A stretch of 63,818 bases of DNA, counting the filler, from Kipferlia bialata (lineage: Eukaryota): assembly GCA_003568945.1 (NCBI GenBank). It is 6 parts of 6 records of this genome, joined end to end, with 100 filler letters (N's around TTAATTAATTAA, not from the genome) between each part and the next. Parts side by side here need not be neighbours in the genome. Positions count along the whole stretch, not along the records: positions 11,679 to 23,251 come from BDIP01001224.1; 5 more parts are not named here. One strand, written 5' to 3'. Positions within the stretch are counted from its first letter, which is position 1. Each line of letters begins with the position of its first letter. The position numbers were made by a program, and so were the translations under genes. The notes under the pieces were generated by a model. The model had not been told where the DNA came from. It saw nothing but the letters and a program-made list of their open reading frames with translations, and did not search any database. Of the stretch, positions 11,769 to 12,678 are shown piece after piece.

Positions 11769-12454
11769 ACTCTCCCAGTCCGATGCCCACCTGTCACCCT
11801 CCCTGGCCAAGACACTCAGGTACCAGAATCAGTGTTTGTATACTAATATTCATCTCTATCTGTGTAGTCTATACTGATCTCATAACATATCGGTATATAC
11901 TGATATGACACTCACACTCAGGCAGCAGAGGGAGAAGCAGTCCCATTATATATATATATATGTGTGTGTGTGTGTAGTCTATACTAATCTCATGTCAGTA
12001 TATATGTAGTATATATTATATACACTGACCCCCAGGCAGCAGAGGGAGAAGCAGTCCCAGAACCCTGGACCAAGGTACACTTCTCTCTCTCTCTCTCTTG
12101 GTATACCTCACTCTCCCTCTCTCCTGATATTCATCACATGTTTACATATGAGTGTGATTCATATTTGATATATTTGATGTTTGTATACAGAGGGAGAAGC
12201 AGTCCCTCTGACAAGTGCTCCACTCTCTCTCTCCTAATATATATCTAGTATATATATATAATATATATATATATGAATATCTAATCCTAGGGCCTCTCCC
12301 TTCACCAGGCACTCTGACAAGTGCTCCACTCTCTCCCTCCCTTTCTCTCTCCCTCCATCCCTTTCTTATATACAGGGCCTCCCCCTTCACCAGGCACTCT
12401 GACAAGTGCTCCACCCTGGACATGCCCTACATGTACAGTGGGGAGAGGGCAGGG

Positions 12455-12460
<6 letters not shown>
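11769..12460 (+). CDS. 3' end of a hypothetical protein
   Basis: Exons LSQSDAHLSPSLAKTLR|QQREKQSQNPGPR|ASPFTRHSDKCSTLDMPYMYSGERAGK-TAG(12458-12460), with canonical acceptors ttaccccag and ctgacccccag. Confidence 0.7.
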
Positions 12461-12491
<31 letters not shown>

Positions 12492-12623
12492 CTACATGTA
12501 CAGTGGAGAGAGGGCAGGGAAGTGATTAGCTACTACTAAGGTGCTTTTGTCTTCCAGAGAGAGAGAATGTGTGTGTGTGTGTGTGGACAATCCCTACATA
12601 TACAGTGGGGAGAGGGCAGGGAC

Positions 12624-12678
<55 letters not shown>

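What the first reader, a model, noticed from the sequence alone, without database searches (positions are those of the whole stretch)
12420..12630. Echoes of terminal exons in the 3' UTR, including a synonymous stop-codon swap
The gene ends TAC ATG TAC AGT GGG GAG AGG GCA GGG AAG TAG (12460). A copy at ~12493-12525 reads TAC ATG TAC AGT GGA GAG AGG GCA GGG AAG TGA, with a silent Gly change and TAG to TGA. A more decayed copy lies at ~12592-12627. A similar stop-bearing echo follows the gene ending at 19524 (19454-19482). No splice site is involved here, so alternative splicing cannot explain these echoes; this points to a DNA-level or allele-level origin.
Basis: partly seen in the sequence, partly recalled or inferred. 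Interest (0 to 1): 0.7.

Follow-up and report, generated by a model that had tools for sequence, protein, structure and literature searches.

The report
Introns stocked with fossil allele fragments
The stop-codon echoes are one case of about 155 half-exon copies that flank half the exons in this stretch of the protist Kipferlia bialata and differ from the working exon mostly at silent sites, likely because they were captured from other, divergent alleles by misaligned recombination, which would be a record of hidden sex and high diversity inside one genome.

Summary
The copies are real at the stated coordinates. The window is Kipferlia bialata. The stop echoes are not special. Of 157 curated exons, 76 carry 155 partial copies 14-66 nt long (control about 1). 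Upstream copies are 5' parts (63 of 63) and downstream copies 3' parts (90 of 92). Anchored copies keep their splice site (AG 48 of 53, GT 70 of 73). Differences are strongly synonymous: pN/pS 0.12-0.17, 0-fold/4-fold ratio 0.077, where a neutral copy gives about 0.5 or more. An independent assembly joins one upstream echo to its exon at single-copy depth, so that one is not a misjoined haplotype. An RNA contig skips that echo's intact acceptor. Terminal exons carry echoes no more often than internal ones (3 of 13 versus 51 of 144). Those terminal echoes show no synonymous bias, and the TAG/TGA swap alone has a chance level near 0.17. Best model: unequal crossover between divergent alleles leaves pieces of recently functional alleles in introns. 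Simulations with outcrossing reach the observed ratio (0.08-0.35); clonal ones do not (0.55-0.68). Ten literature searches found no description. A second isolate is the decisive test.

The parts
11769..11819 (+). Exon of KIPB_005293 (gene cut at the contig start)
   Evidence: Translation matches P0001
11922..11945 (+). Upstream echo of exon 12036-12074: 5' part with its AG
12036..12074 (+). Penultimate exon of KIPB_005293
   Evidence: Its letters form the loose end of the RNA-type contig, joined to 12376; P0001
12188..12226 (+). Chimeric echo: piece of exon 12036-12074 fused to a piece of the last exon
   Evidence: Two abutting hits, 12188-12206 and 12200-12226
12291..12332 (+). Upstream echo of the last exon, with an intact acceptor that scores higher (4.6) than the used one (2.8) and one silent change; not used by the RNA contig
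   Evidence: joined in tandem to the exon on one DNA contig at full depth
12376..12460 (+). Last coding exon, ending AAG TAG (copy 1)
12459..12489 (+). (AG)15 microsatellite spacer
12492..12525 (+). Copy 2: 3' part of the last exon, one silent change, TGA at the stop position
12584..12627 (+). Copy 3: 3' part of the last exon, four base changes in three codons, all non-synonymous, TAG kept, followed by (AG)25
19524..19626 (-). Last exon of a second gene, ending AAG TGA; two upstream echoes at 19741-19693 and 19832-19805
19454..19479 (-). Downstream echo of that last exon, TGA kept, about 2 silent and 2 amino-acid-changing base differences
57777..57794 (+). Echo downstream of the terminal exon 57395-57715 with neither stop codon nor GT
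10587..10920 (-). Example internal array: four 3'-part echoes of exon 11085-10973, all starting at the same offset, five distinct sequences including the exon
3062..3682 (-). Example internal array: six 3'-part echoes of exon 3841-3794
44141..44680 (+). Example internal array: six 5'-part echoes, each after an acceptor, upstream of exon 44759-44829
1..63818 (.). Window-wide pattern: 155 echoes (4629 nt in all) at 76 of 157 curated exons

Best explanation
The stop-codon echoes belong to a window-wide set of tandem half-exon copies that keep their own splice site and differ from the working exon mainly at silent sites, and these copies are likely pieces of other, divergent functional alleles captured by misaligned (unequal) recombination during inferred outcrossing. 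Shown: a copy upstream of an exon is its 5' part with the acceptor, a copy downstream is its 3' part with the donor (or the stop, at a last exon), and each adds about 109 nt to a basal intron of about 110 nt. Inferred steps: (1) a local duplication that breaks once inside an exon and once in the intron seeds the first echo, and duplications that would make a complete extra exon are purged; (2) because the microsatellite-rich introns of two alleles barely align, short exon pieces are the main homology, so an exon of one allele pairs out of register with an echo of the other; (3) crossover then adds a unit that carries the donor allele's exon end, splice site and intron start while keeping the old breakpoint, or collapses the array; (4) turnover is fast relative to allele age, so echoes show allelic (silent) differences and little neutral decay; (5) mismatch-tolerant Dmc1, the only Rad51-type recombinase reported for fornicates, would favour pairing of such short diverged pieces; (6) the spliceosome ignores half exons, which suggests recognition across the exon. 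On this reading TAG versus TGA is an allelic stop variant or simply the end of homology, and has no function.
For: 155 echoes versus about 1 in controls. Polarity 63 of 63 and 90 of 92. Third codon position holds 239 of 320 differences; pN/pS 0.12-0.17, bootstrap 0.10-0.24; shifted frames give 3-4; 4-fold sites differ at 167 of 717, 0-fold at 68 of 2757. One echo per exon side still gives 0.18 (p=1e-12 against a neutral copy). Anchored echoes give a 0-fold/4-fold ratio of 0.077, or 0.045 after trimming 12 nt from the free end. Echo versus adjacent echo gives 0.19 although 64 of 91 echo pairs share their free-end breakpoint, which fits refreshing from alleles and not copying of one dead echo. 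Splice dinucleotides are kept like constrained sites (118 of 126) while flank identity falls to background within about 10-14 nt. Up to five distinct sequences per array and one four-gamete violation. Single-lineage simulations gave 0.41-1.19 in 60 settings. Population simulations, 10 seeds each, gave 0.55-0.68 without outcrossing and 0.08-0.35 with it; one setting gave pS 0.24 and pN 0.019, close to the data. Tandem link at full depth in an independent assembly. Fornicates lack Ku-based end joining and Rad51A, have two Dmc1 paralogues and keep meiotic genes (PMC8516963, passages); Dmc1 tolerates mismatches (PMC8682777, abstract).
Against: No second isolate or allele was found, so allelic diversity near 20% at silent sites is inferred from the echoes themselves. 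Sex has not been observed in metamonads. The finding's own terminal echoes are not synonymous-biased (about 3 silent, 7 amino-acid-changing base changes). Gene KIPB_005292 supplies much of the signal: without it the 0-fold/4-fold ratio is 0.137, and four small gene sets give 0.67-1.1. One single-seed clonal run gave 0.14 before pooling over seeds gave 0.68. The simulations are simple and need exchange rates near 1000 times the per-site mutation rate to match the data. Only 1 four-gamete violation among 4 informative pairs. The excess of non-synonymous changes near free ends (p=0.0006) may be alignment overrun. One window only.
Confidence: 0.6

Rival explanations
1. Echoes are used: some non-canonical RNA route (repeat-guided joining inside the exon, or recursive splicing) or a directed DNA templating route lets echo sequence enter the mRNA or the working exon, so protein-level selection acts on them directly, as on silent cassettes.
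For: Near the splice end the 0-fold/4-fold ratio is 0.03, as low as a working exon. Only 2 in-frame stops in 1444 codons. Decoy donors score like true donors (median 6.4 versus 6.7).
Against: The one RNA contig examined matches the working exon with no other letters at two diagnostic sites (contigs drop rare variants). No downstream echo has both an acceptor at its free end and a matching internal donor in the exon (0 of 92). Only 14 of 53 upstream echoes begin with GT as a ratchet point would need. No known nuclear mechanism (own knowledge).
Confidence: 0.13
2. One or a few hybridisation events between two diverged lineages, followed by loss of heterozygosity with unequal repair, left homeologous exon pieces; no continuing outcrossing is needed.
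For: Predicts silent-biased differences and non-alignable spacers. Third-position divergence is overdispersed, with 51 echoes at zero versus 34 expected.
Against: Arrays hold up to five distinct sequences, more than two parents give without repeated events.
Confidence: 0.1
3. In a clonal lineage, frequent collapse or conversion of echoes onto the exon makes amino-acid-changing mutations in echoes slightly harmful (second-order selection).
For: Tandem repeats recombine; the nearest echo is less diverged than the farthest in 17 of 23 untied arrays (p=0.035).
Against: A rough calculation gives a ratio of 0.32 or more unless diversity itself is 0.5 or more. Clonal simulations that include this effect gave 0.55-0.68.
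Confidence: 0.07
4. Plain sister-chromatid tandem duplication followed by neutral decay. This probably accounts for a subset (identical echoes with alignable spacers) and possibly for the terminal echoes of the finding, including copy 3.
For: Explains polarity and shared breakpoints. 8 of 23 identical echoes have spacers above the control 95th percentile. Terminal echoes look neutral.
Against: Cannot give pN/pS below about 0.4-0.5; the observed synonymous share is 229 of 320 versus 0.42 expected.
Confidence: 0.06
5. Assembly artefact: alleles or strains in the culture were stitched in tandem.
For: Silent bias and non-alignable introns are what alleles look like. The assembly is a fragmented short-read draft.
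Against: An independent contig runs echo, spacer, exon in tandem at depth 339, equal to the unique flanks (326, 335), with the shared 32-mer at 700. The same run holds 0.96 of 480 sampled words of 16200-20800, which contains 10 echoes including the one at 19454. 151 of 155 echoes are under 55 nt, so assembly words span them (default SPAdes word sizes recalled). These reads may be the source of the window, so this tests the assembler and not the sample.
Confidence: 0.04

Closest known systems
Internal (intragenic) tandem duplication and intron gain by tandem duplication (Rogers 1989; Gao and Lynch 2009, both seen only as cited in PMC4974935; Cryptococcus CNN00420 in PMC2395259)
   Same: Local tandem copies of exon and intron pieces; unequal crossing over, conversion or slippage proposed as cause.
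   Different: No new intron is made and the protein is unchanged. Copies are half exons with one splice site, occur at half of all exons examined, and carry a coding-constraint signature although excluded from the mRNA examined.
Tandem exon duplication with mutually exclusive splicing (own knowledge)
   Same: Adjacent homologous exon copies with low dN/dS.
   Different: Those copies have both splice sites and are each expressed. Here the partner site is missing and is depleted below background.
Silent cassettes and pseudogene templates for gene conversion (Borrelia vls, Neisseria pilS, chicken Ig pseudo-V; recalled)
   Same: Unexpressed partial copies next to an expressed gene that keep coding character.
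   Different: Those diversify one surface or immune gene with amino-acid changes. Here housekeeping and hypothetical genes alike are affected and differences are silent.
False haplotype duplication in assemblies of heterozygous genomes (own knowledge)
   Same: Allele-like copies side by side with silent differences.
   Different: The tested case is physically tandem at full depth, copies are shorter than assembly words, and arrays hold more than two versions.

Membership tests
Internal tandem duplication | Same-strand adjacent copies of part of the same gene, real in DNA | tested here: met
   (one junction checked directly)
Internal tandem duplication | Untranslated copy decays neutrally (pN/pS about 0.5 or more against the exon) | tested here: not met
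   0.12-0.17 overall; the terminal echoes alone are compatible with neutrality
Intron gain by tandem duplication (Rogers model) | The duplicate supplies both ends of a new intron | tested here: not met
   Echoes sit inside existing introns with one decoy site; all 36 curated exons of KIPB_005292 match the GenBank model, with no echo included
Mutually exclusive duplicated exons | Each copy has an acceptor and a donor | tested here: not met
   Partner site near the free end in 3 of 92 and 7 of 63, below background
Mutually exclusive duplicated exons | Each copy appears in spliced mRNA | tested here: inconclusive
   One RNA-type contig uses only the main exon; contigs hide rare forms
Silent-cassette gene conversion | Directed transfer from silent copy to expressed locus within a lineage | not testable with these tools
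   Needs raw reads or clones over time
Silent-cassette gene conversion | Copies supply amino-acid variation to a surface or immune gene | tested here: not met
   Differences are mostly silent and span many unrelated genes
False haplotype duplication | Copies at half depth and never joined in reads | tested here: not met
Inter-allelic unequal crossover products | Echo sequence matches the working exon of another allele | not testable with these tools
   No second isolate found
Programmed stop readthrough or alternative terminal exon | In-frame continuation or splice route to the second stop | tested here: not met
   Copy 2 is out of frame with copy 1; no strong acceptor downstream (best at the 5th percentile)

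The most novel reading that the evidence does not exclude
K. bialata introns grow and shrink as arrays of half exons taken from other alleles, so a single apparently homozygous genome archives its population's recent alleles, records cryptic sex and about 20% silent diversity in a lineage where sex has never been seen, and shows a reduced spliceosome ignoring intact decoy sites at half of its exons; in the boldest form the echoes also serve as templates that re-enter the working exon or the mRNA.
Probability: 0.5. Interest if true: 0.85.

Novelty: new variant of a known kind. Interest (0 to 1): 0.72.

Why it matters
If right, one genome gives a readout of sex and population diversity in a free-living relative of Giardia, where sexual processes have not been directly observed. 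It adds a route of intron expansion (about 109 nt per echo) that is neither transposon nor simple repeat. It makes splice-site choice directly testable in a reduced spliceosome, because a true and a decoy site of near-equal strength sit about 100 nt apart, likely at thousands of introns. It also warns that gene predictors can take echoes for exons in this genome. The stop swap alone would not matter.

Tried and rejected
Gene continuing past the TAG through a donor overlapping the stop: considered because all five stop positions overlap GT. Judged unlikely but not excluded. Donor scores are weak, no good acceptor follows (the first scoring of the site near 12558 was one base off and is not used), and the GenBank model stops there. 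The RNA and DNA contigs have 36 and 32 letters left after 12447, which would end both in the AG run if collinear (those letters were not shown). Minus-strand or other-frame reading of 12376-12640: rejected. Codon-blind mutation bias: rejected, since 4-fold changes are 68 transitions to 99 transversions and shifted frames invert the ratio. Cassette-exon and ratchet-splicing use: not supported. No whole genome was held, so no genome-wide survey was possible. No listed run was on record as RNA; two of three RNA-type runs had nothing laid on the stretch, which is no evidence on expression. No reads or contigs were laid on the 19454 echo. Searches for a second strain found none: metagenome pattern 0 hits, 592 pattern matches with none confirmed, clusters of 1, 1 and 2 members, next relative of the adaptin exon 32% identical. 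No Pfam family for P0001, P0002 or the 19527-19625 exon. Earlier scan notes: none. Gao and Lynch 2009 was not held. Left out of the counts: the Gly/Met-rich repeat exons at 17958-18864, uncertain exons at 26728-27824, and genes not curated. One of the 13 terminal exons (35060 to about 35456) is uncertain.

Full report
Identity and layout. The window is six contigs joined by N-linker-N spacers. The last exon of the finding matches 100% a 57-aa partial protein named KIPB_005293 of Kipferlia bialata, on a contig of 11,573 bases that equals window 11679-23251. No whole genome was held, so all counts come from this window.

Observation. An RNA-type contig (run X2; RNA is the tool's guess) joins exon 12036-12074 to the exon at 12376 and matches 12374-12447 with no other letters, so the copy that ends in TAG is the coding one up to that point. 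The tool skipped 12448-12634 as repeats, so the stop itself and the claim that the copies lie in the 3' UTR were not observed in RNA. Each stop overlaps a GT. As donors these score at the 10th and 22nd percentile of true sites for the two exons and the 1st-3rd for the echoes, and the best downstream acceptors are at the 5th and 9th percentile. I therefore accept both exons as terminal.

The wider pattern. I built gene models with a small trained gene finder and hand curation: 157 exons in 17 gene pieces. The 14 multi-exon or chain models are open and have AG/GT at internal boundaries after one fix. For the longest gene, 36 of 36 curated exons are found whole in the GenBank model P0002. Aligning each exon without gaps to its own flanks gave 155 copies of 14-66 nt at 76 of 157 exons; flanks of other genes gave about 1 per set. 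All 63 upstream copies are from the 5' side of the exon and 90 of 92 downstream copies from the 3' side. Anchored copies keep AG in 48 of 53 and GT in 70 of 73, and identity beyond the site falls to background within about 10-14 nt. Intron length is about 112 + 109 nt per echo. Decoy donors score like true ones (median 6.4 versus 6.7) and decoy acceptors slightly lower (7.4 versus 8.9). The free end of an echo has a partner site less often than random intron positions (3 of 92 versus 10%, p=0.012; 7 of 63 versus 25%, p=0.005), as expected if complete extra exons are purged.

The surprise is the substitution pattern. Over 1444 codons there are 229 synonymous and 91 non-synonymous differences; pN/pS is 0.12-0.17 depending on the transition weight, with a bootstrap over exon sides of 0.10-0.24; shifted frames give 3-4. 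A dead copy of a constrained exon should give about 0.5 or more; the synonymous share expected is 0.42 against 0.72 observed. One echo per exon side gives 0.18. In anchored echoes 4-fold sites differ at 24% and 0-fold sites at 1.9%, or 1.1% after trimming the free end. Echo against neighbouring echo gives 0.19 although 64 of 91 pairs share their free-end breakpoint. Against: the signal is uneven, with 0.05 in KIPB_005292, 0.16-0.20 in three genes and 0.39-1.1 in small sets; without KIPB_005292 the 0-fold/4-fold ratio is 0.137.

Terminal echoes. Downstream echoes occur at 3 of 13 last exons and 51 of 144 internal exons (p=0.54). Three echoes span a stop: two keep it unchanged and one reads TGA for TAG. 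That swap needs two base changes or is simply where homology ends; a stop follows a T by chance 17% of the time in these flanks. The four terminal echoes carry about 3 silent and 7 amino-acid-changing base changes, so they do not themselves show the bias. A terminal echo at 57777-57794 has no stop and no GT. The finding is therefore a small, weakly informative sample of a general process.

Artefact test. In run X1 (independent contigs) one 113-base contig runs from the 3' end of the upstream echo through 15 spacer letters into 12345-12412 at depth 339. Unique flanks are at 335 and 326, and the 32-mer shared by echo and exon is at 700. Two alleles would instead give a doubled downstream flank and no tandem join. 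X1 also holds 0.96 of 480 sampled words of 16200-20800, which has 10 echoes. These reads may be the window's own source, so the test clears the assembler, not the sample. No other letters were seen in the roughly 100 covered bases, and the species' draft genome paper reports one eukaryotic coverage peak (PMC5874029, methods section). Both fit a haploid or homozygous state but do not show it.

Mechanism. Single-lineage simulations with duplication, collapse, conversion and loss gave 0.41-1.19 over 60 settings. Population simulations with crossover between array units gave, pooled over 10 seeds in four settings, 0.55-0.68 without outcrossing and 0.24, 0.35, 0.12 and 0.08 with it; the last had pS 0.24 and pN 0.019. 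A first single-seed pass was noisy and included one clonal run at 0.14. These are toy models: they show that allele capture is sufficient and that simple clonal turnover is not. The best reading is that exon pieces are the main homology between alleles whose microsatellite-rich introns have diverged, so that an exon pairs out of register with an echo and crossover adds a unit carrying another allele's exon end and splice site. Low 0-fold divergence against 24% at 4-fold sites implies young echoes, which should then be polymorphic between isolates (inference). Metamonads lack Ku-based end joining, fornicates lost Rad51A and have two Dmc1 paralogues, meiotic genes are kept, sex has not been directly observed, and Carpediemonas membranifera is predicted haploid (PMC8516963, passages). 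Dmc1 tolerates mismatches that Rad51 does not (PMC8682777, abstract). The link from these facts to the echoes is inference. K. bialata retains 87 of 174 spliceosomal proteins and no snRNA candidates were found (PMC6679479, passages); skipping of the intact acceptor at 12290 is one direct case of decoy avoidance.

Literature. Ten full-text searches listed no paper describing this pattern; I saw listings and abstract starts for most. In the genome paper the term search found no 'duplicat', 'heterozyg' or 'microsatellite' and no relevant 'repeat' passage; its supplements were not read and could bear on this. Closest known are internal gene duplication and intron gain by tandem duplication (PMC4974935 passages; PMC2395259 passages). 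Gao and Lynch 2009 was not held. Mutually exclusive exons, silent cassettes and false duplications are compared from my own knowledge. Subscription journals are mostly outside the library. The scan's earlier notes held nothing on this.

Verdict. Observation confirmed. The stop swap alone is ordinary. The window-wide arrays of splice-site-bearing half exons with a coding-constraint signature are real as far as tested, apparently undescribed, and best explained by capture from divergent alleles (0.6). A second isolate and raw RNA reads would decide.

Noticed in passing
window 11579-11678, 23252-23351, 34909-35008, 46562-46661, 58210-58309: Artificial linkers flanked by 44 N each: the window is six separate contigs, and genes are cut at the joins.
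   Followed up: yes
window contigs 1-6: Echo density differs sharply: 45 echoes per 36 exons, 39/30, 23/37, 40/20, 4/9 and 4/25. The cause is unexplained; expression or recombination rate are candidates.
   Followed up: no
window 12188-12226 (+): Chimeric echo that fuses a piece of the penultimate exon to a piece of the last exon with no intron between, probably a deletion between two echoes.
   Followed up: partly
window 9714-9669 (-): An echo whose donor reads GA is followed by 24 nt of open frame and a GT, like an incipient micro-exon; it is not in the GenBank model P0002.
   Followed up: partly
window 17958-18864 (+): In a gene resembling the p23 co-chaperone (name recalled, not tested), Gly/Met-rich exons repeat each other, so exon duplicates may here have entered the protein. 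Left out of the counts.
   Followed up: no
window 46662-48968 (-): Two long intron-free ORFs without a Pfam match; the longer has a P-loop-like motif near its start. Unlike the intron-rich neighbours.
   Followed up: partly
window 35852-37225 (-): Adaptin gene (Pfam Adaptin_N) with a single 1.37-kb last exon and no echo.
   Followed up: partly
window 51200-52335 (-) and 54415-57715 (+): Two kelch-repeat genes with long exons and few echoes.
   Followed up: partly
window 12461-12990 and 19136-19523: Both stop-echo cases lie between convergent genes whose 3' ends are 390-530 bases apart.
   Followed up: no
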